From an uncultured Acidobacteriota bacterium (GTDB taxonomy: Bacteria > Acidobacteriota > Terriglobia > UBA7540), in contig CAWDSK010000006.1 in assembly GCA_963804995.1 (NCBI GenBank), positions 1,568,001 to 1,632,000 on the forward strand: a DNA stretch of 64,000 nt. Direction: 5' to 3'. The first letter of the stretch is position 1. Every line of letters starts with the position of its first letter. The notes beneath the pieces are model-generated. The model searched no databases. It had not been told where the DNA came from and saw only the letters and a list, made by a program, of their open reading frames with translations. Below, in pieces: positions 5,493 to 43,735 of the stretch. The position numbers and the translations under genes are program-made.

Positions 5493-5604
5493 ACCACCAA
5501 GACACCAAGGCACCAAGAAAACCCATTCCCAAGGAAAAGGAAAGAAAAGGGAAAGAAGAATGAACCACCAAGACACCAAGGCACCGAGAGAGCCCATTCC
5601 CAGG
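5493..5604 (+). repeat. Left arm of long inverted repeat around the GxxExxY gene (units beginning ACCACCAAGACACCAAGGCACC, period ~72 bp)
   Basis: Two units here; reverse-complement match to 6998-7147. Confidence 0.85.
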
Positions 5605-6995
5605 GAAACGGATGAGGTTGCTACGAAAGTCGTCGATGCGGCATTTGCGGTGCATTCGGCGCTCGGCCCGGGCCTGCTGGAGAGCGTCTACGAGATCTGC
5701 CTGGTGCACGAACTGCAAAAGCGTGGGCTGAAAGTGGAACGGCAAGTCTTACTTCCCGTCGTCTACGACAACCTTCACCTCGATGCCGGATTGCGGCTGG
5801 ACCTGGTCGTGGAAAAGCAGGTGATTATGGAACTGAAAGCTGTCGAGACACTGTTGCCGGTTCACACAGCTCAATTGCTCACCTATCTCAAACTTTCCGG
5901 CCATCGGCTAGGTTTGCTAATAAATTTCAATAGCAGCCTCCTCAAGCAAGGGATCCACCGACTAGAGCGGTTTCGATTTAAGTGCTTACATATCCGCAAG
6001 AGGCGAAGAAGTTTGTGCACTCGCTTGGGGAGACCGTATTGAGCAACTCCCCGATTTCCTTCCAGAGGGCCTCGATATCTCGTTTGGCGGCTTTGCGGAG
6101 CCGCGCCTTGAGTTTGGCAAAGAACTTTTCTATCGGGTTCAGATCGGGAGAGTAGGGTGGCAGAAAGAGTACGATGGCTCCGATCGCGGTGATCGCTTCC
6201 TGGACTCCCGCCACCTTGTGACTGCTGAGGTTGTCGAGGATCACGGTGTCTCCGGGTTGGAGCGTTGGGCACAGGAATTGACGCACATAAGCCAGAAACA
6301 TCTCGCCGTCCATCGGCCCGTCGGTGACCATGGGCGCGGTCAATCGGCGGCGGCGCAGGGCGCCCACAAAGGTCGTCGTCTCCCAATGCCCGTGCGGCGC
6401 CGAGTCGAGGCAACGCGTCCCTCTGGGCGCACGCCCGTAGCGGCGCGTCATGCTGGTCGATGTCCACGTTTCATCGATAAACACGAGTTTTTCGACTTCC
6501 ATCGTGGGCAGTGCTTGCCGCCACGCTCGGCGCGCCTGCTGCACGTCCTCGCGTTCTTGCTCGCTGGCGTGCAGCGTTTTTTTTGAAGGTAAGATTCCAT
6601 TTGTTCAACTGATGCCACAAGGCGCCGATCTTGATCGATACGCCTTGCTCGACCAGCCGTGCGCATAACTGGGCCAAGCTCAGACCCGGCTCCTGTTCGA
6701 TCCAGGCGCGCAGCACGGCCTCCATCTCCGCGACCCGCGAACGGCGATGCCCGCCGATCTGAAAACTGGTGCGGTTGCCCGTTTTCTGCTCCCGTCCCCG
6801 AACCTGGTAAACCCAGACGCGACTGACTTCCAGCCGCCGCGCAATCGCCGTCGGACGTTCACCGCGATCCAATGCCCATAACACCCGATCCCGCAAGTCC
6901 TGTGAATAAGATTGCATCCTTGCCTCCCCTCTACCGGCAGAGGCATCATAGCACATAATGTATACACTTAAATTAAAAACGCTCTAGCCTTGTGA
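5560..6995 (+). CDS. GxxExxY protein (PD-(D/E)XK-like); last codons displaced by IS630
   Basis: LGPGLLESVYE, RLDLVVE..VIMELKAV and AQLLTYLK...LGLLINF motifs. Removing the IS restores ...GIHRLAL* with TGA at 6993-6995; as it stands the frame reads into the IS to 6042. Confidence 0.88.
5963..6986 (-). mobile_element. IS630-family insertion sequence with TA target duplication
   Basis: Ends TAGAGCGGTTTCGATTTAAGTG and rc TAGAGCGTTTTTAATTTAAGTG (19/22 identical); inserted in CTAG. Confidence 0.92.
5978..6917 (-). CDS. IS630 transposase, two ORFs joined by probable -1 frameshift at an A8 run (6577-6584)
   Basis: HTH ORF MQSYSQDLRDRV...LTFKK; DDE ORF with VFIDET, ILDNLSSHK and LPPYSPDLNPIE. Confidence 0.9.
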
Positions 6996-34102: not shown

Positions 34103-36015
34103 GTTGCGGTAGGGATACCGGTTACCCGGTACCCCCCGCACGGATCCGTACGTGCGCTGGTTAGCGCATACGGCTCTTATCTCGGATGTGTGGCGGCGAA
34201 CCGTTGGGATGGCCAAGGATGCACAACGTGCGGAGCAGGCAACCAGCAGGCCGCAAGCTTCCCCAGTCGGTCCCAGTTGAGGCGGTGGCGTTGACTGCGT
34301 TGACGCAGTTGTGTTCGCCACAGTCGGGTCAACCGTTCCCGAAAGATTCGCAGGCGGTTGAGGTTTCCCGGTACCGCGTGATAGTTGAAGTAGCCTTGCA
34401 CGACCGACCGGAGCCATTTACCCGTATCCGCGATGGGATCGTGCCGACGCTGCCGGAGTTGTTGCTTGAGTTCCTGCAACTTCCCCCGCAGGCGCTTGCT
34501 GATCGTCTTCCGCTTCACGGTAAATTGCCCCCTCCGGTTCTTCCCGCTGATATGCGTGAAGCCCAGAAAGTCGAACGTCTCCGGCTTACCTTCTCCTCTC
34601 CGTTTCCGGTAAAGTTCGGCAAACGGCCCGAACTCGATCCGGCGCGTTTTGTCAGGATGCAGTTCCAATCCAAACTTCCCCACCCGCTCCCGGAAATCCT
34701 CCAGAAAGCGGTCGGCTTCCGTCTGCGATTGGAATCCAAGGACCGTATCGTCGGCATACCGCACCACGACCACGTCTCCCCGGGCGTGCTTCTTGCGCCA
34801 CGCCTGCACCCACAGGTCAAAGACGTAGTGCAGATAGATATTCGCCAGCAGGGGCGAGACCACCGCCCCTTGTGGCGTACCCATCTCCGTCTCCGACCAT
34901 TCGCCTTCCTCCCTCACCCCGGCTTTCAGCCATTTCTGGATGAGCCGGAGAATCCGGGGGTCGGCGACGCGATGCTGCACGAACTTGAGCATCCATTCGT
35001 GGGATATCGAATCGAAAAATCCACGAATGTCCGCGTCAAGAACGTAGTTCACGTGCTTCACCGTGAGCGCGTACGAGAGCGCGTCCAGCGCTTGATGCTG
35101 GCTGCATCCCGGTCGAAAGCCATACGAGAAGCCCAGAAAGTCTTCCTCGTAAATCGCATTGAGGATGGTGACCACGGCCTGTTGGACGATCTTGTCCTCC
35201 AGTGCCGCAACCCCCAACGGACGTTGCCGCCCGTCGCCTTTCGGGATATACGCCCTTCGCGAGGGCTTCGCTCGGAATGCTCCGCGGTGGACCCGGCTGT
35301 GCAGATCGACGAGTCGACCTTCCAGCCCGCTTTCATACTCCTGCCACGTCATGCCGTCTACTCCCGGTGCAGCTTTTCGCTTCAAGGCGTAAAAGCTTTC
35401 CCGCAGCAGATCGACCGTTAAGTGGTGGAGCAAGGCCGTGAACTTCATCTCCCTGTGTTCCTTCGCGGCTTTCCGCACACCCGCGAGTCCCTGGGACACG
35501 CGTGCCCCGCTCTGTGTCGGGTGCGTGTTAGGCCAACGGGTGTTCTCCTTGATCAGCGGCCTTCCCTCCTCATTCTCCGCCAACGGCTTCCCGTCTTTGT
35601 TCAAATGATTCATCGGTACTGTTCCGCTGTCCGACTCCTCGAGAGCGTGCAGGCGGGCTGTACGGCCATCGCCTTTTCCCGCCGTCCGGCCACGATCTAC
35701 GGCGGCCGGCGCCTCCGAGGTCTCCCGGTTCTCGTGCAGAAAGTGTCTAGGCGTGTCTGGGGTCTACGACTACGCAGGACTGTGCCGGAACTCGCGTTGG
35801 CGTCCCGGCCTCATGTTGCCTTCCGTTTAGTCTGAAAACGTCGGCGTCCTGATTGGACATTTTCGAAGCTCAATACCCAGCCCACCTATTCCCCTGTTTA
35901 CGCTTCACCGTGCGCCTCACGACGCCCAGCGCAAAACTCGGGGCCGAGTGGATCGCTGCTCCTTCCTCGTGAGAAATTTTCATTCTCTGCTTTCTGCCGG
36001 TTTATCCCGGCGCAC
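34103..36015 (-). mobile_element. Group II intron (1913 nt) inserted in a GTAG-REP
   Basis: 5' GTGCG at 36015; domain V GAGCCGTATGCGCT-AACC-AGCGCACGTACGGATC; domain VI ending ...CTACCGCAAC at 34103; joined flanks rebuild a REP hairpin. Confidence 0.93.
34177..35613 (-). CDS. ltrA: Group II intron reverse transcriptase/maturase, no endonuclease domain evident (true start uncertain)
   Basis: APGVDG, YIPK.DGRQRPLG...EDKIVQ, SYGFRPG, DADIRGFFD, GTPQG, RYADD and FDFLGF motifs; X domain with GYFNYH. Confidence 0.95.
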   Translation of the reverse strand: MNHLNKDGKPLAENEEGRPLIKENTRWPNTHPTQSGARVSQGLAGVRKAAKEHREMKFTALLHHLTVDLLRESFYALKRKAAPGVDGMTWQEYESGLEGRLVDLHSRVHRGAFRAKPSRRAYIPKGDGRQRPLGVAALEDKIVQQAVVTILNAIYEEDFLGFSYGFRPGCSQHQALDALSYALTVKHVNYVLDADIRGFFDSISHEWMLKFVQHRVADPRILRLIQKWLKAGVREEGEWSETEMGTPQGAVVSPLLANIYLHYVFDLWVQAWRKKHARGDVVVVRYADDTVLGFQSQTEADRFLEDFRERVGKFGLELHPDKTRRIEFGPFAELYRKRRGEGKPETFDFLGFTHISGKNRRGQFTVKRKTISKRLRGKLQELKQQLRQRRHDPIADTGKWLRSVVQGYFNYHAVPGNLNRLRIFRERLTRLWRTQLRQRSQRHRLNWDRLGKLAACWLPAPHVVHPWPSQRFAATHPR

Positions 36016-37937: not shown

Positions 37938-38067
37938 GCCTCCATTATTGGGAACCCGGCGGGGAAACGCAAGGGAGTTCGGGTAGTGGTGCAGTTTGAT
38001 GTTGTAGCGGCGAGTTTACCTCGCCATAGGGCGGCGGAGCCGCAACCAAAACGTGACACGGGCGGGA

Positions 38068-38215
38068 GAAGCTGTGAAATAATTCAGGAAAGAGCAAAAT
38101 CATTTCACGCAAAGGCGCAAAGTCGATGAGGCGCAAAGAAAACAAAGCAGTTGTTCATTCACAGTCTTTGCGTCTTGGCGCCTTTGCGTGAAATTGTTTA
38201 TTTTTTCACAGCTTC
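38068..38215. mobile_element. MITE (GAAGCTGTGAAA ends) with 3-bp target duplication GGA
   Basis: GGA on both flanks; removal rebuilds hairpin CACGGGCG-GGA-CGCCCGTG. Confidence 0.8.
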
Positions 38216-38276
38216 GGACGCCCGTGGCACAACGTAGGGCCCAGCGGCGAAAGAATCGAGTCCAGATCATGGTGTT

Positions 38277-38382
38277 CTCAGCTTTCAGCTATCAGGTCTT
38301 AGCTATCAGCTCTCAGCTATCAGCGATCAGCCACGGCCTCCTGGCCCACCGGGTCTTTAGCTGGGAGCTGAGAGCTGATCGC
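38277..38382. repeat. Solo heptamer array with a short inverted partner (TCAGCNN family)
   Basis: ctcagctttcagctatcaggtcttagctatcagc... and agctgggagctgagagctgatcgc. Confidence 0.75.
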
Positions 38383-38383
38383 T

Positions 38384-38422
38384 TCATTCATACCTCAGCG
38401 CCATCATGGGATCGACCTTCGC
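38384..38422 (-). pseudogene. C-terminal remnant of an ABC/ADOP-type permease
   Basis: Reads AKVDPMMALRYE*, truncated by a REP. Confidence 0.6.
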
Positions 38423-38469
38423 GGGTGGCGCATACGTGCCGCCTTTTGGCATGTATGCGATCACAACAT

Positions 38470-38610
38470 TCAGTCCATAGAGAGCATGGAGTCATCCTTC
38501 AGAAAATAAAATCTCCAACGGGACCACGGCCAGTCGCCGGGTTTCTCAACCAATTTGCGGGTAACCAGAGGCAGGTGATTGAGACCGTAGAAATGTTTCT
38601 GCCGGGGCAC
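38470..38610 (-). pseudogene. Internally deleted RAYT (46 aa) between two REPs
   Basis: VPRQKHFYGLNHL joined to PLVTRKLVEKPGDWPWSRWRFY...MD*; HUH core missing; REPs at ~38423-38460 and ~38636-38673. Confidence 0.65.
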
Positions 38611-38756
38611 CCGGTCATCTTACTACCTTTGAAGGCCGCATACGAACGCAAAGAACGCGTACGTCTGCGCTACCGCTACGCATACGGGCCGACCGCTGGG
38701 GCCCTGAGAGTTCACGCGGGAGTGGGAAGGACGCACCCAGCGCCGCTTGACGCCCG

Positions 38757-38906
38757 GACCTCACCTCGCGCCCTTTGCGCTTCATTCTGGTACGTGAATA
38801 CTTGATTGCCTACGCGCCCGAGGAAAAACCTTTGTGGGTTGTCGCCGTCATGCACGGACGGCGCAGCCCGCGCATCATGGCCGCAATTCTCAGAGGCAGA
38901 GATTAA
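38757..38906 (+). pseudogene. 3' half of a RelE/ParE-family toxin gene
   Basis: DLTSRPLRFILVREYLIAYAPEEKPLWVVAVMHGRRSPR...*; no start codon. Confidence 0.7.
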
Positions 38907-38946
38907 CTCCCACCCCCCTGTGTTTTTCTTGACAGAAGAATTCTGC

Positions 38947-38975
38947 TTGTATAGTGTAACGATACGCCATACACT
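38947..38975 (+). promoter_or_regulatory. Putative higBA sigma70 promoter overlapping an imperfect operator palindrome
   Basis: TTGTAT-N17-TACACT; tgtaacgatacgccataca lies in the spacer. Confidence 0.5.
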
Positions 38976-38989
38976 TGAAAGGACGGAGC

Positions 38990-39268
38990 GTGATCGAGAG
39001 CATAAAACACAAAGGTCTTAAACGGCTCTATGAGAAAAACGACCGCAGCGGCATCCGGCCCGATCTGGTGGACAAGGTGCAGAAAATTCTCTCCGCTTTG
39101 GAAGCGGCGGAAGGCCCCGGCGATATGGTCCTGCCCCTGTTCCGGTTTCATCCGCTAACAGGAAACCGGCGCGGCACGTACTCAGTCACGGTTAAGGCCA
39201 ATTGGCGCGTTACGTTCAGCTTTCGGCAAGGAGCCGCTTGCGACGTGGATTTAGAGGATTATCACTAA
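38990..39268 (+). CDS. higB: HigB-like toxin (plasmid maintenance killer, RelE family)
   Basis: IESIKHKGLKRLYE...FHPLTGNRRGTYSVTVKANWRVTFSF...DVDLEDYH. Confidence 0.88.
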   Translation: MIESIKHKGLKRLYEKNDRSGIRPDLVDKVQKILSALEAAEGPGDMVLPLFRFHPLTGNRRGTYSVTVKANWRVTFSFRQGAACDVDLEDYH

Positions 39269-39281
39269 CGGAGGACAGAAC

Positions 39282-39581
39282 ATGCCGATGAAAAAACCCA
39301 ACCATCCCGGCGATCTTATCCGGGATTGTCTTGATGAGCTGAAGATCAATGTTACGGACGGTGCCAAGGCGCTCGGCGTGACGCGTGCGACGCTTTCCCG
39401 CATTCTGAATGGCAAGGCCAGCGTATCCCCGGAAATGGCCGTGCGTCTCGAAAAGGCACTCGGGAGTTCGGCGGGCTTTTGGCTTCGGCTCCAACTCAAC
39501 TACGATCTGGCGCAGATACAGGCGCGAAGCGCAAAAATTCAGGTGCGCCGCCTTGCTGCGCCGTTGCAAGTGGCGCTTTGA
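39282..39581 (+). CDS. higA: HigA antitoxin (HTH)
   Basis: HPGDLIR...AKALGVTRATLSRILNGKASVSPEMAVRLEKALG....WLRLQ..YDL. Confidence 0.92.
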   Translation: MPMKKPNHPGDLIRDCLDELKINVTDGAKALGVTRATLSRILNGKASVSPEMAVRLEKALGSSAGFWLRLQLNYDLAQIQARSAKIQVRRLAAPLQVAL

Positions 39582-39678
39582 CCGTTTTAGAGAGAGTGAA
39601 CTCTGCCCCCGCCGTGTTTCTAGCCCCGGAAGAAAAGTCTCTGTGGGTTGTCGCAGTCAGAGGGGTAAAATAGTTGCT

Positions 39679-39772
39679 GACCTCACCTCGCGCCCGTTGC
39701 GCTTCATTCTGGTACGTGAATACTTGATTGCCTACGCGCCCGATGGCCGCAATTCTCAGAGGCAGAGAGTAA
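39679..39772 (+). pseudogene. Second, internally deleted copy of the ParE-like remnant
   Basis: Near-identical to 38757-38821 joined to 38877-38906; a piece of the missing middle lies at ~39623-39659. Confidence 0.75.
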
Positions 39773-39886
39773 CCCCGCTCCTTCATTTCGCGTGTTTCGC
39801 AAACACTCCTTTGCGCAACGCAGGCTGTGGATTGTTGAAGGGGAAACGGTGTCGGGAAACGGGGGTGGCCCTGGAAACGGTACCTG

Positions 39887-40035
39887 GAAGCTGTGAAAAA
39901 ATTGACAATCTCGCGCAGAGACGCAGAGGCGCAGAGATACGAAATAAATAACTACTTTATTTTCTTTGTCGCCTCTGCGCCTCCGCGTCTCTGCGCGAGA
40001 TGCTTTTGCTCGTTCCGGAATTTCTTCACACGTTC
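39887..40035. mobile_element. MITE (GAAGCTGTGAA...TTCACACGTTC) with 3-bp target duplication CTG
   Basis: Removal gives hairpin GGAAACGGT-ACCTGAC-ACCGTTTCC; cargo is a CGCAGAGACGCAGAG inverted pair. Confidence 0.8.
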
Positions 40036-40101
40036 CTGACACCGTTTCCCCCACCGTTTCCCCCTTAGGATTGAGGAATGAAGGCCCCGGCTGGACGACG
40101 T

Positions 40102-41171
40102 TTAAGGCTTCCGCGTCGGTATAACCTTTCTCTCTCCAAAGTATACTGCGGAAACTTCCGAACGGCGGATGAACAGTGCCTCGCGATCACCCAAGGAGGA
40201 CAGGATCACGTAATACCCCTCTCCAGTCTGATCCAGAACCTTGACATTAACGACTGTCGAGTCGGTCCACTGAGGCTGCTTATCCAGATAGAGTACGGCG
40301 GGCATTGGGGCACCACCACCGAATTTCTGCTGCATCTCGCCGTAAATAAAAAACGTGTAGTACGAAATCAGAAGAACCGTAACGAGCCAGTTTCCCCAAT
40401 GCAATGCTTTGCGGACGGGGTCCCTGGCCCGGGTCACGATTGACGCCACAACCCCCGCTGCAAAGTACCACAGGGCTAGGTGCTTCGTCTGCCATGAGGC
40501 CTCGCTCGTGTCAAGCAGCATCGCGAAGAAAAGAAGTGCCCAGCTTGAAATGATAAGCAATACACAACCTCCTGGCCTCCTATCGATGTAACGAATGATT
40601 GGCACAAACGACGCGTAATACAACATGAGCGCCGCCGCCTGCAGAAGCTCCACCCACTCAGGCATGTCACCCCCGATCGCCGCTGGGCTTATGAGCAGAA
40701 ATCGCGAAATAAATCCCGTAACTATCGTGGTGAGTATGAATGCAGACAAGCGGGCCAGTTTTGGGCAAATGCCACCTCAGGGCTTCGAGGCACCGCCCAG
40801 GTAGGAAGTTCCACGAACCGCGTGAACCCAAAATGGAAAGCGGCTGCGGGTAGGGTGCTCAGGATAGCGAACATGAAGCCCGTGAAGAAGAGTCTCCCGC
40901 GAATCGGGTTGAACTCCATGAAACCGAACTGCGCCTCGTACGCAGATACGATTATGAACCCCACTCCGTACGTCAAGGCCAGGGCCGTGGCCGTCGCACG
41001 GGAGATGGCCTCGATTCCCCACTTTGGAGCGGGGGCCTGAGCATCGAGATTGTCACTATTTTCGGCCACGCATTTAGATTGCGCCGGTGCGGCTAACGCC
41101 GGGCGGAAGCATCCTCGATCTTGACAGTACCATGAAGCGGGGCACGTTGCTATTGCCGGTAGCGTAGACAT
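40102..41171 (-). CDS. Hypothetical multi-pass membrane protein, split by a probable frameshift near 40760 (start uncertain)
   Basis: Two overlapping hydrophobic ORFs (40722..41171, 40102..40749) join if one A is added to an A4 run. Confidence 0.55.
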
Positions 41172-41394
41172 CGCCCCTTATGTGCGCGCGCTTTGCGCTC
41201 CTCTGCGACCAACGTGGCCGCAAACAATCAAATCCATTTGGCCGTAAAACGGCCGAACCGTGCTTCTGGAGCGGGTAGCGCATCAGAGTCTCTGAGAGGC
41301 GAGACTCTGATGGCGCTACCTGCTTAAGATCCAGCAAGGAGGTATCTAGCAATCGTGCCGCGAGGTCGTAGTCTAATTGTCTGCTGCTGCGAAC

Positions 41395-41797
41395 TTAATC
41401 GGACATGTCAATTTCTTCTTGCAGCTGCTCATGGAGCCGACTTTCCGGCATCTTTAAATCTTCCGATTCCGGATCTTTCTGTCTCTCAATTTCACGTACT
41501 GTTTCACTGAGCTTCTGGAAATTGCTCCACACGGTGCCGGTCTCGGTCTGTTTTGAACCGATGTAGTGCTTCCCGGCTATCCAATAGAGATTTATCCAAT
41601 GGAAAAATACGCTGTATGCAAGCTCATCACTCAATGCGTCGAGCTTCACGGAGAGTCCTACCGTATCGAAGAAATCAAATACGTCCTCTGCCTCCTCTTC
41701 GTACGTCCTAGAAAGGAGTGCCTTTGCAGCATTCGACCGAGTGGCCCTGAAATTTGGCTCGTTGAAGCGCGCATCGAACTTAAGCACGATGTCAACT
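41395..41797 (-). pseudogene. N-terminally truncated hypothetical protein (DUF4760-like)
   Basis: VDIVLKFDARFN...DVFDFFDTVGL.VK.DAL....AY..FFHWI..YW; no credible start or RBS. Confidence 0.5.
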
Positions 41798-42538
41798 TCC
41801 CCAAATGGCTTTTGCTATGTCGCGAAGATCGTGGGACCTGTTCAATGGCGCGAGATTGCTGGCGACCATTACTACTGCAGATCGGTAAAGTGGGTGGGGA
41901 AACGGCTGAAAACGGACCTTTCAGAGACTCTTCAGAAGAAGATTGGCACAAGGCAAACATTTCGGGAGATCGAGGACGAGGGATGCAAGAAAGAGATTGC
42001 AAAGCTTGTTGGAATGGTGGACGAGGGCACTGGCGAACCGCCAGATCATGGCCAGGGCAAACGTAATTCTCGAAAACCTGCCGACCTTAGGGGGCAGCTC
42101 AGCAGCTATGAGTACGTGATTAAGGGTGGCAAGCGCAAAGCCTTTCGCCCCCACAAAGATTTCCAACTTCGTTTGGAGCGCTATTTGGTCAAAGTCGGCG
42201 TTTCTGATTTTACGGCGGAACTAAACTACGTCGACGTGTCCTTCTCACGTGGAGGACAACCGTTTATCGGGGAAGTGAAGGTTACAAATGGATATATCAA
42301 CTCGCGGCAGGCCTTTCGAGCAGCATTAGGCCAGGTCCTAGAGTACCGCTTCACTCGAGATTGGAAAGCCGCACCACACATGATCATCTTTTTGGATCAG
42401 GAAGTTGACGCCGCGAGATTGGCGCTCGCTGCACAACTGAAAATTTCAGTCGTCGTGGAAGCAGAGAATGGAGCATTCCAGCTTGCCAATTCTTATCAGA
42501 GCAATGTGATAAATTCAATTTTTCCACCGCTACCTTAG
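41789..42538 (+). CDS. Putative restriction-endonuclease-like PD-(D/E)XK protein, probably N-truncated
   Basis: C-terminal YVDV...IGEVK...RAALGQVLEY motif; lower GC than its surroundings. Confidence 0.55.
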   Translation: MSTSPNGFCYVAKIVGPVQWREIAGDHYYCRSVKWVGKRLKTDLSETLQKKIGTRQTFREIEDEGCKKEIAKLVGMVDEGTGEPPDHGQGKRNSRKPADLRGQLSSYEYVIKGGKRKAFRPHKDFQLRLERYLVKVGVSDFTAELNYVDVSFSRGGQPFIGEVKVTNGYINSRQAFRAALGQVLEYRFTRDWKAAPHMIIFLDQEVDAARLALAAQLKISVVVEAENGAFQLANSYQSNVINSIFPPLP

Positions 42539-42564
42539 CAAAGCGCCGCGGGAAACGGTGTCAG

Positions 42565-42682
42565 GAACGTGTGAAAAAATGCCAGGCCACGGATTAGCAC
42601 GGATTCGCTCGGATGAAAAGAGAGGACTTATCCGTGCTGATCTGTGTTAATCCGTGGCTCCGACCGATTTTTTCACAGCTTC
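42565..42682. mobile_element. MITE (GAACGTGTGAA...TTCACAGCTTC) with 3-bp target duplication CAG
   Basis: Inverted relative to 39887..40035, in the same type of hairpin; cargo is a CCACGGATT...AATCCGTGG pair. Confidence 0.8.
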
Positions 42683-42782
42683 CAGGTACCCTTTCCTCTT
42701 GGTCGCGTGTGTCGTGGGGCACCCATTGGCTTTTCAGATCTCCCCAAGACTTTTTTTAGGGCCACGTGCTCTTCCCTCAGCG

Positions 42783-42935
42783 GGGTAGCGCATCAGAGGA
42801 AGCCGCAGTTTGGCCTCCTCTGCGGTTCTTAACATGGAAACAGCAACCATGATATTAACATCCAAACATGAAATCCCATCGACGGACGAAGAGCCGCAGA
42901 CGAACGCAAGGAACGCGTACGTCTGCGCTACCCCG
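42783..42935. repeat. GTAG-type REPIN
   Basis: ggggtagcgc... and ...cgtacgtctgcgctacccc; right REP nearly identical to 38636-38673. Confidence 0.7.
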
Positions 42936-43123
42936 CTCAACCTGCTTGTCGGCGCGCGGCGCCGGTCCGAAGGCCGCCGCCCCGTTCTCAAAGAACTGTT
43001 TGAGCCAGCGATAGAAAACTGGAGTTGATGTTCCAAAGTGGAAACCGGAACCCGATCAAGCAAGTGCCGACGCAGAATGGTAACCTTTTCCTCGGGGGTG
43101 TGATGCTTACGTTCGTTGCTCAT
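42936..43123 (-). pseudogene. Degenerate IS3-like transposase OrfA, cut off by a REPIN
   Basis: MSNERKHHTPEEKVTILRRHLLDRVPVS, then a shifted frame with VFYRWLKQFFENGAAAF. Confidence 0.65.
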
Positions 43124-43206
43124 GAGTCCTCTCCGTTGTAGCTATCTTAACGGGAGAACTCTCCATTTTCACCTGACCCTCAGTTCATCCCCCGTAATAA
43201 TAAAGC

Positions 43207-43236
43207 TTGACACTAAGCGTTACTGATTGGTATAAT
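43207..43236 (+). promoter_or_regulatory. Consensus sigma70 promoter
   Basis: TTGACA-N18-TATAAT with TG extended -10 and AT-rich upstream sequence. Confidence 0.65.
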
Positions 43237-43735
43237 CCGGCTGCGCCGACTGTCGGAAGGACTGGGCGTGGAACGCACCGTGGGGAGGCCCCGCAGTGAA
43301 GCGTAAATATGAGACCGAAAACGCACCGTCTGAGCTGTTCATTCTTAGTCGACAATGTGTCGCTGGATGCCCAAAACGCCCAAAGCTGAGAACATATTGA
43401 AAACAAAGCGCGTCAATTCGCGATTTCTGTTTGCCAAAGCTGAGAGGTTATTGAAAACAAATACGGTTAGCAACGATATGAAAAATGGTAAAACAGGATG
43501 ACAATGTGTCCAGTTGGTAAGGGCCGAAAAGCCCAGAACAGCCGCTTCGCGACGAAGGAGAATTCGGAAGACGGTGGCTGGCAATTGGAATGAAGAGAAT
43601 GCCAGTCGGGAGCCAACTACCCCAAGTCCGGGCAGCGGATCCCGGCGCCCCTCCCCGGCCCGAAGAAGACCCCGCAAATCAAACTGCCCCAATGTTCCAA
43701 CCAGCGCGCCGATGCTACCCGGGAGTCGTTACTGC

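What the first reader, a model, noticed from the sequence alone, without database searches (positions are those of the whole stretch)
38065..42685. MITE family that inserts into REP hairpin loops with a 3-bp duplication and carries different hairpin cargo
Seen: three elements (38068-38215, 39887-40035, 42565-42682) share GAA(GC/CG)TGTGAA ends and have exact 3-bp duplications (GGA, CTG, CAG). Excising each rebuilds a small hairpin with the target in its loop. The interiors differ but all are inverted pairs of 8-9-mer repeats (CGCAAAGGCGCAAAG, CGCAGAGACGCAGAG, CACGGATTAGCACGGAT) similar in style to the GxxExxY flanks. Inference: structure-directed targeting and three-layer nesting (repeat in MITE in REP). 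No cognate transposase is visible in the window.
Basis: partly seen in the sequence, partly recalled or inferred. Interest (0 to 1): 0.72.

Follow-up and report, generated by a model that had tools for sequence, protein, structure and literature searches.

The report
Mini-transposons landing in REP palindrome centres
Three short gene-less mobile elements in a soil acidobacterial genome belong to a family of about 85 copies that shares its ends with IS1182-type transposases and lands in the exact middle of small repeated palindromes; that much is known behaviour, but the same ends wrap many unrelated hairpin repeats at lengths stepped by one DNA turn, which I did not find described.

Summary
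Observation confirmed. The genome holds 91 end-paired elements; 74 have exact 3-bp duplications. Five are near-identical 1,769-bp IS1182 insertion sequences with the same ends, so the short copies are IS1182 MITEs. Duplications sit at the dyad centre of REP or TIR repeats (53 of 74 in a terminal loop versus 162 of 1,000 random sites).

Two corrections. Elements 1 and 2 are one lineage, not different cargo. Targeting follows the transposase isoform and looks at least partly sequence-read: relatives' isoforms with near-identical ends each use their own repeat, and one clade uses weak hairpins (13 of 45).

Beyond the finding: in metagenomes the same ends wrap 26 unrelated interiors, mostly REP doublets. 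Lengths peak every ~10.3 bp (P=0.0005; 0.02 after collapsing look-alikes), and an IHF-like site often sits mid-element. This suggests selection for looping the two ends.

Hairpin-targeting IS1182 and IS1182 MITEs are published, and the scan noted similar elements in other genomes. New variant of a known kind.

The parts
38068..38215 (.). MITE element 1 (148 bp; 149-bp lineage, CGCAAAG word variant)
38057..38067 (+). Left arm (38057-38064) of target REP-A plus first copy of the duplication GGA (38065-38067)
38216..38226 (+). Second GGA copy and right arm of REP-A
38068..38083 (+). Left terminal inverted repeat of element 1 (IS1182-type, 16 bp)
38200..38215 (-). Right terminal inverted repeat of element 1
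38097..38199 (.). Interior hairpin of element 1: octamer-word arms 38097-38125 and 38171-38199
   Evidence: I6
38138..38153 (+). Central AT-rich IHF-like motif of element 1; by hand count its 13-mer lies 73 and 62 bp from the two tips. Binding not shown
   Evidence: sequence
39887..40035 (.). MITE element 2 (149 bp; same lineage as element 1, CGCAGAG word variant; 18-copy family F1)
39873..39886 (+). Left half of target repeat B (TIR-type, GGGGWSAS-like) with duplication CTG at 39884-39886
40036..40049 (+). Second CTG copy and right half of target repeat B
   Evidence: empty form seen in public contigs
39908..40001 (.). Interior hairpin of element 2 (arms 39908-39936, 39973-40001)
   Evidence: I4
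39949..39964 (-). Central IHF-like motif of element 2 (by hand count 74 and 62 bp from the tips)
   Evidence: sequence
42565..42682 (.). MITE element 3 (118 bp; CACGGAT lineage, single full copy in this genome, matches in 10 of 28 genus genomes)
42551..42564 (+). Left half of target repeat B (inverted relative to element 2's) with duplication CAG at 42562-42564
42683..42696 (+). Second CAG copy and right half of target repeat B
42586..42658 (.). Interior hairpin of element 3 (arms 42586-42614, 42630-42658)
   Evidence: I9
42615..42630 (+). Central IHF-like motif of element 3 (53 and 52 bp from the tips)
37984..43300 (.). Repeat-rich island holding all three elements (boundaries approximate); not seen next to the flanking gene in 19 relatives

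Best explanation
The elements are non-autonomous IS1182-family MITEs. SHOWN: their 16-17-bp ends are those of IS1182 insertion sequences, five of them intact in this genome. They insert with a 3-bp duplication at the dyad centre of repeated palindromes (RAYT-type REPs and TIR repeats). The repeat family used by intact IS copies tracks the transposase isoform, and one MITE lineage occurs in several target families. Interiors do not match the end regions of the IS copies inspected, and lengths cluster one helical turn apart. INFERRED: a DDE transposase supplied in trans binds both ends, which must lie on one face of a 100-150-bp loop, probably helped by an IHF/HU bend at the central AT-rich site. 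A symmetric transpososome then reads a long palindromic target sequence and makes a 3-nt staggered cut at its centre. Elements 2 and 3 were most likely placed by the intact IS clade (CAG/CTG targets). Element 1 was most likely placed by the AbrB-ORF clade, seen here only as a deleted relic. The ends have repeatedly acquired abundant hairpin repeats as interiors, and those of the right length and bend were amplified.
For: Intact partner: five 1,769-bp copies, 0-2 differences, each with a 3-bp duplication; NF033551 374.7 bits, cut-off 270. Duplications 74 of 91. Centre of a stem with at least 7 of 8 pairs in 38 of 74 versus 1 of 3,000 random sites. REP-A: 50 occupied, 21-24 empty. Isoform-target map: G017 12 of 12 copies duplicated, 11 in REP-A; G018 11 copies in a different REP; G020/G003 6 copies in a third, although REP-A is abundant in G020. 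The relic here groups with the REP-A users (89/95 support, 79-90% identity to the nearest) and itself sits in REP-A. The G018 MITE burst sits in REPs of the type its own IS uses. 26 interiors among 78 metagenome elements. Period 10.25 bp; genus lengths 99, 107, 118, 119 and 120, not used in the fit, fall within 1.6 bp of the predicted peaks. IHF-like site in 15 of 34 lineages versus 6.4 in shuffles.
Against: No transposition or binding was assayed. No clean empty allele at the orthologous site: 19 relatives lack the whole island. No intact REP-A-type transposase was found in this 92%-complete assembly. 17 of 91 elements lack an exact duplication (9 differ by one base; several look recombined). 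45 of the 74 duplications are one triplet in essentially one REP family, so the site counts are not independent. Periodicity covers three turns in the fitted set and weakens to P=0.10 (period scanned) when only distinct lengths are counted. The largest family fits the IHF-like spacing poorly (3 mismatches), and the N4 spacing is not enriched over N5 genome-wide. Positional phasing is significant on one side only (P 0.011 versus 0.06), and the scoring weights were set after seeing the data. The REP-A clade has moderate tree support.
Confidence: 0.82

Rival explanations
1. Structure-directed targeting: the transposase recognises an extruded hairpin or cruciform of almost any sequence and cuts across the loop, as modelled for IS1272.
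For: The duplication is centred whether the loop is 3, 5 or 7 nt, across five repeat families. The core GGC-N5-GCC has 5,321 free sites, so a short motif is not enough. IS1272 targets hairpins with little sequence conservation (PMC4923244 passages), and loop duplication is one drawn outcome (PMC5678879).
Against: Isoforms keep to their own repeat although other strong hairpins abound. The clade of the intact IS has a clear sequence consensus but weak folding (13 of 45 in loops, mean z -0.6). Only 18 of 55 metagenome sites are in terminal loops. Duplication length stays 3 bp whatever the loop size.
Confidence: 0.25
2. Host-protein recruitment: transposase isoforms are led to particular REPs by a protein bound there (RAYT, gyrase, IHF) or by the small AbrB-like ORF product, rather than reading DNA directly.
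For: Three target types flank RAYT genes in this genome. REPs bind gyrase, Pol I and IHF (PMC1525189). One clade carries an AbrB/MazE-like ORF (weak Pfam hit below cut-off).
Against: Isoforms without the small ORF are also repeat-specific. No RAYT flanked by REP-A was seen among 14 Y1 hits. For IS1397/ISKpn1 the transposase itself sets specificity (one sentence in PMC1525189).
Confidence: 0.12
3. The REP plus MITE is one composite unit spread by RAYT or recombination, so the duplications are inherited from a few old insertions.
For: Many copies share near-identical flanks; orientation in REP-A is biased 26:6 for the largest family; chimaeric copies exist.
Against: The same lineage occurs in five repeat families and both orientations, several lineages occupy the same REP, and the duplicated triplet follows each site's own loop variant. 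Intact IS copies show the same pattern.
Confidence: 0.05
4. Length peaks and the central motif reflect shared ancestry of one or two scaffolds, or gain and loss of 8-9-bp words, not selection for helical phasing.
For: Six lineages place the motif at about 62-64/52-54 bp. Word loss does create 149 to 141 and 128 to 120 variants. Significance falls with collapsing.
Against: Peaks recur in interiors with unrelated REP families and in AT-rich interiors without words. The best period is 10.2-10.3, not 8-9. Out-of-range lengths fit.
Confidence: 0.25

Closest known systems
IS1182 family, palindrome-targeting members (IS1272/TnSha1; PMC4923244, PMC5678879, passages read)
   Same: Same transposase family (NF033551 above cut-off), terminal inverted repeats, insertion at palindromes or hairpins.
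   Different: IS1272 deletes or replaces the stem-loop without duplication. Here 3 bp at the dyad centre are duplicated and the target is an isoform-specific repeat family.
MITEPye1 of Paracoccus yeei (PMC11578231, passages read)
   Same: Gene-less element with IS1182-like ends that folds into a long stem-loop and is presumably mobilised in trans.
   Different: 4-bp repeats and 1-3 copies per chromosome; the passages read mention no REP targeting, no interchangeable interiors and no length steps.
REP-targeting ISs: ISPsy8, IS1397, ISKpn1 (IS3 family), ISRm22 (PMC1525189, passages read)
   Same: ISPsy8 makes a 3-bp repeat at the symmetry axis of a REP hairpin; for IS1397/ISKpn1 specificity is ascribed to the transposase.
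   Different: Other transposase families; IS1182 is not among the five families listed; no MITE derivatives described in the passages read.
Bacterial MITEs with IHF sites such as Correia elements, and REP/BIME modules that bind IHF (PMC3184786, passages read)
   Same: Short TIR element with a putative IHF site; REP doublets flanking an IHF-like spacer.
   Different: Here one pair of ends carries at least 26 unrelated interiors; IHF binding is untested.
Paramecium IES size distribution (PMC3464196, passages read), citing IS1 and IS50 length-scan experiments (not read)
   Same: About 10.2-bp length periodicity below the persistence length, read as a looping constraint on a DDE excision complex.
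   Different: Eukaryotic, domesticated piggyBac system with 45,000 elements; here a bacterial MITE family and a small sample.
TIRYT-associated TIR repeats, GGGGWSAS motif (PMC3733652, passages read)
   Same: The target consensus of the intact-IS clade (GGGA-CAG-AC) fits this motif by eye, and TIRYTs are reported in Acidobacteria.
   Different: The passages read do not describe these repeats as IS targets.

Membership tests
IS1182 family (autonomous partner) | Transposase scores above the NCBIfam IS1182 cut-off | tested here: met
   374.7 bits; relative of the AbrB-ORF clade 390.8 bits; cut-off 270. Relic 110 bits, internally deleted
IS1182 family (autonomous partner) | DUF772 plus DDE domains in one long ORF | tested here: met
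   PF05598, PF01609, PF13751 above cut-off
IS1182 family (autonomous partner) | Terminal inverted repeats and short target duplication | tested here: met
   16-bp perfect ends; 5 of 5 copies with 3-bp duplication. ISPse1 and MITEPye1 have 4 bp
IS1182 family (autonomous partner) | Demonstrated transposition | not testable with these tools
   Only recent copying is indicated (0-2 differences among five copies)
MITE | Under 500 bp, TIRs, flanking direct repeats, no transposase gene, many copies, stable stem-loop | tested here: met
   85 paired elements under 400 bp; folds; no Rfam match
MITE | Ends shared with an autonomous IS | tested here: met
MITE | Internal-deletion derivative of that IS | tested here: not met
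   The non-coding ends of 17 IS copies inspected by eye hold none of the hairpin interiors; blastn of the intact IS gave no MITE hit over 40 bp. Interiors appear foreign
REP (targets) | Repeated extragenic palindrome present as empty copies | tested here: met
   REP-A 21-24 empty copies here and in 25 of 28 genus genomes
REP (targets) | Associated with a RAYT gene | tested here: inconclusive
   Target types D, E and the G018-type flank Y1 genes; none of 14 Y1 hits is flanked by REP-A, the target of element 1
TIRYT TIR repeats (target of elements 2 and 3) | GGGGWSAS motif flanking a tyrosine transposase gene | tested here: inconclusive
   Motif fits by eye; no Y1 hit was seen to be flanked by it
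IS1272-type stem-loop-replacing elements | Target hairpin deleted, no duplication | tested here: not met
   Both arms kept and 3 bp duplicated in 74 of 91
RNA-guided IS (IS110-like) | Non-coding region carries words matching the cognate target | tested here: not met
   Longest shared word 5-9 nt, cognate no longer than non-cognate, 8 isoforms, one target site each
REP-IHF-REP module (BIME-1-like interior) | Functional IHF site between two REPs | tested here: inconclusive
   Consensus-like site (consensus recalled) in 15 of 34 lineages; 3 IHF/HU genes in the genome; binding untested

The most novel reading that the evidence does not exclude
IS1182 ends act as a reusable chassis that turns resident REP doublets and octamer hairpins into new MITEs again and again. 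Capture is filtered by DNA mechanics (helically phased length, central IHF bend). The products are then sent into other REP families by whichever transposase isoform is present. This would be a RAYT-independent route of REP dispersal, a natural length scan of a bacterial transpososome, and a panel of same-end transposases with different long palindromic targets.
Probability: 0.4. Interest if true: 0.7.

Novelty: new variant of a known kind. Interest (0 to 1): 0.48.

Why it matters
The basic behaviour is known. What this family adds is a comparative set. First, transposases with near-identical ends but different ~19-bp palindromic targets make the determinant of IS1182 target choice testable by domain swaps; PMC5678879 notes that palindrome targeting in this family had been stated without detailed data. 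Second, helically stepped lengths across unrelated interiors would be in-genome evidence that short bacterial MITEs are selected for looping geometry. Third, repeated capture of REP doublets would link two repeat classes usually treated separately, and helps explain repeat pile-ups and rearrangements in acidobacterial genomes.

Tried and rejected
RNA-guide idea: no cognate enrichment of target words in IS non-coding regions; rejected. Composite transposon 39887-42682: outer flanks CTG and CAG are not a direct duplication; rejected. Other IS1182 families in the genome as partners: two further families (6 and 3 copies) have different ends and targets; rejected. Orthologous empty allele: 19 loci from relatives diverge at about 37950-37985 and 0 of 19 carry the end motif in the following 1.5 kb or less; uninformative for single insertions. 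Public runs: five runs with shares 0.05-0.07, no RNA holder listed; four were laid, and no listed joint skips an element exactly. Rfam: nothing at gathering thresholds. RAYT for REP-A: not found among 14 Y1 hits in this genome; relatives were not searched for it. Literature: ten searches listed no paper on IS1182 MITEs with REP-doublet interiors, stepped lengths or acidobacterial REP targeting. The Siguier reviews, Wilde 2003 and Goryshin 1994 could not be opened, ISfinder is not searchable here, and no supplements were read, so these elements may be deposited or described there. No structure prediction was run, since it would not separate the rivals.
Full report
OBSERVATION. The window is G000:C6:1568001-1632000 of a 7.55-Mb, 9-contig assembly. 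Relatives of its transposase come almost all from Acidobacteriota records. The three elements, their ends and the duplications GGA, CTG and CAG are as described, and each folds far better than shuffles. Only element 1 gives a perfect stem with the duplication as the whole loop. Elements 2 and 3 lie in inverted copies of one repeat. They sit in an island with a HigB/HTH toxin-antitoxin pair and orphan ORFs. At the orthologous flank, 19 loci from relatives diverge at about 37950-37985 and none carries the end motif.

GENOME-WIDE FAMILY. Allowing one mismatch, the 15-nt end occurs 207 times versus 2 in a shuffled genome. 182 ends form 91 pairs and 25 are unpaired. 85 pairs are under 400 bp, five are 1,769 bp and one is 1,902 bp. 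74 of 91 have an exact 3-bp duplication. Of the other 17, nine differ at one base, and several have both flanks from the same arm or chimaeric interiors, which points to recombination between copies. The short elements fall into families of 51, 18, 7 and 2 copies plus seven singletons; 32 copies of the main subfamily differ by about 4 bases on average. The exact end motif occurs in 24 of 24 same-genus genomes and once in 1 of 16 more distant ones.

PARTNER. The five 1,769-bp copies differ by 0-2 bases, and all have 3-bp duplications. They encode a 506-aa IS1182 transposase; the nearest lies 43 kb past the window. A second, internally deleted IS1182 with the GAAGCT end and a small AbrB/MazE-like ORF lies at C6:1712980 inside REP-A. 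Two other IS1182 families have other ends.

TARGETS. Rebuilt empty sites have at least 7 of 8 stem pairs around the exact triplet in 38 of 74 cases (1 of 3,000 random), with mean energy -10.2 versus -4.7 kcal/mol. The triplet is in a terminal loop in 53 of 74 (162 of 1,000 random). These are not 74 independent tests: 50 of 91 elements are in REP-A, 15 in repeat B, 11 in three further REPs and 15 elsewhere, and only 21-24 REP-A copies are empty. Three target types flank Y1/RAYT genes; REP-A flanks none of 14 hits. Repeat B fits the GGGGWSAS motif of TIRYT repeats by eye (PMC3733652 passages). In public contigs, five (X1) and four (X4) records follow the left flank of element 2 to 39886 and continue with its right flank, the predicted empty form of that repeat, though not necessarily of this locus.

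TARGET FOLLOWS TRANSPOSASE. I examined 70 loci, a subset of the 114 matches listed. In G017, 12 of 12 copies have duplications, 11 in REP-A. In G002, 3 copies with both ends are in REP-A (2 exact). In G018, 11 copies of one isoform are in a different REP (7 exact). In G020/G003, 6 copies are in a third (4 exact), although the REP-A pattern gives 48 matches (some overlapping) in G020. In G005, 3 of 4 copies of an isoform without the small ORF have type-D flanks (1 exact). The intact-IS clade uses repeat B (9 of 14 exact). The REP-A users and the relic form one clade with moderate support (89/95; 16 rows, two broken proteins left out). A G018 MITE burst sits in REPs of the type its own IS uses. 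Across 79 genome loci of the intact-IS clade, 68 had both ends and flanks; 48 have duplications but only 4 of those have at least 6 of 8 stem pairs (about ten loci repeat genus copies). For 45 distinct sites the consensus is sharp while folding is weak (13 in loops, mean z -0.6). A short core does not suffice either (5,321 free GGC-N5-GCC sites), whereas the 19-bp palindromic consensus has 40 free and 31 occupied sites. A long palindromic sequence and a hairpin cannot be separated by genomics alone; I favour sequence reading by a symmetric complex (inference). A guide RNA is not supported.

INTERIORS. Elements 1 and 2 align end to end with lineage members from four relatives; the word differs by homogenised substitutions. 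Element 3 is a separate 118-bp lineage with matches in 10 of 28 genus genomes. IS end regions lack these interiors. The octamer words also occur free: 49 of 141 clusters lie away from ends, and of 103 arms outside paired elements 23 retain an end remnant, so some free copies are eroded MITEs. All 6 GxxExxY genes have word-array flanks, two with the MITE words; the direction of transfer is not shown. Of 78 distinct elements with flanks, 55 have duplications, 18 of them in terminal loops, and they form 26 interior clusters, mostly doublets of unrelated palindromic repeats, plus octamer hairpins and AT-rich non-hairpins (the repeat-family labels are my reading). So one pair of ends has taken up foreign interiors many times. 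How is unknown; insertion of a REP doublet followed by deletion, or template switching during gap repair, are the candidates (inference).

GEOMETRY. Cluster lengths peak at about 129, 140 and 149 bp: best period 10.25, R 0.65, P 0.0005 with the period scanned. P is 0.018 with all 129-bp clusters merged and 0.10 for distinct lengths only (0.019 at a fixed 10.3). Genus lengths 99, 107, 118, 119 and 120, outside the fit, lie within 1.6 bp of predicted peaks (120 is partly a word-loss variant of 128). All three window elements carry an AT-rich motif at mid-length (that motif was drawn from these elements). Scored against the recalled E. coli IHF consensus, 15 of 34 lineages pass versus 6.4 in shuffles (0 of 200 reach 15), with phasing to one tip P 0.011 and to the other 0.06. 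The largest family fits poorly. Three IHF/HU genes are present. The precedent is the 10.2-bp periodicity of Paramecium IESs and the IS1 and IS50 length scans cited there (PMC3464196 passages; primary papers not read).

MECHANISM. Shown: shared ends, partner gene, central 3-bp duplication, isoform-target association, foreign interiors, stepped lengths. Inferred: trans mobilisation, looping with a host bend, direct reading of the palindrome, and the assignment of element 1 to the relic clade and elements 2 and 3 to the intact clade.

KNOWN. I read keyword passages, not whole texts, of nine papers. IS1182 members target palindromes (PMC4923244, PMC5678879, both citing Siguier 2015, which I did not see; I recall that it mentions loop duplication). 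An IS1182 MITE is described (PMC11578231), and ISPse1 makes 4-bp repeats (PMC3281130). ISPsy8 makes a 3-bp repeat at a REP axis (PMC1525189). MITEs with IHF sites are reviewed in PMC3184786; PMC10969869 does not mention IS1182. Ten searches listed nothing on interchangeable REP interiors or stepped lengths for such elements; ISfinder and supplements were not seen. The scan had noted similar IS1182 MITEs in hairpin loops in other genomes, while a query adding cargo, helical and IHF terms returned none.

VERDICT. Real, and explained as IS1182 MITEs (0.82 for the whole account; higher for family identity alone). The isoform-specific targets, the range of interiors and the helical length steps are the additions. 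New variant of a known kind; interest 0.48.

Noticed in passing
window 37984-38050: A palindromic repeat doublet is cut off at 38036, where public contigs continue with its missing half, by a GCCGCAACC-type end seen 51 times in the genome. Element 1 is therefore nested at least four layers deep; the partner end was not found.
   Followed up: partly
L006 (G000:C2:235078-236979): An IS701-family element (NF049999 above cut-off) with an AbrB-like ORF lies between two of the family's ends, apparently inserted in a REP-doublet MITE.
   Followed up: partly
G000 C1:300231 and six other copies (family F2, 262-291 bp): A further REP doublet sits inside one arm of the MITE and was amplified with it.
   Followed up: partly
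G000 C1:626314 and ten more: A separate 112-bp MITE with the ends of the CTAG-targeting IS1182 family carries two IHF-consensus-like sites (by eye) and no long REP arms.
   Followed up: no
G000 C5:1013441: A 164-bp element with different ends (GGCTGCGGAAAAA) also wraps a REP doublet around an AT-rich centre, so the architecture is not limited to one end type.
   Followed up: no
G000 C6:520645, C3:1251013, C2:341769, C9:251749: Copies with both flanks from the same arm or chimaeric halves suggest MITE-mediated inversions or misassembly.
   Followed up: partly
G000 C3:366576 and five more: A second intact IS1182 family with other ends sits in CCTTCTCCCC-type hairpins in all six copies.
   Followed up: no
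window 5560-6042: GxxExxY gene (TIGR04256) with CACCAAG word arrays upstream and in its 5' end.
   Followed up: partly
window 38470-38610 (-): 46-aa ORF resembling, by eye, the end of the RAYT at C6:722534; no HMM hit. Probably an internally deleted RAYT unit.
   Followed up: no
window 38757-38910, 39623-39776, 38975-39581: A HigB/HTH toxin-antitoxin pair lies between two shuffled copies of a short toxin-like gene fragment (65-bp direct repeat); public contigs join 39583 back to 38833, hinting at tandem or circular forms.
   Followed up: no
window 34177-35613 (-): Reverse transcriptase (PF00078); earlier scan notes call it a REP-homing group II intron.
   Followed up: no
window 40102-42538: Lower-GC orphan ORFs between elements 2 and 3 (membrane-like proteins, weak DUF4760 hit, a 265-aa ORF without a family hit above cut-off), bracketed by inverted repeat-B copies.
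   Followed up: no
L016, L017, L019, L020, L022, L059, L072: One IS1182 clade and L022 carry a 66-69-aa AbrB/MazE-like ORF whose end overlaps the transposase start; a similar ORF precedes the IS701 element, role unknown.
   Followed up: partly
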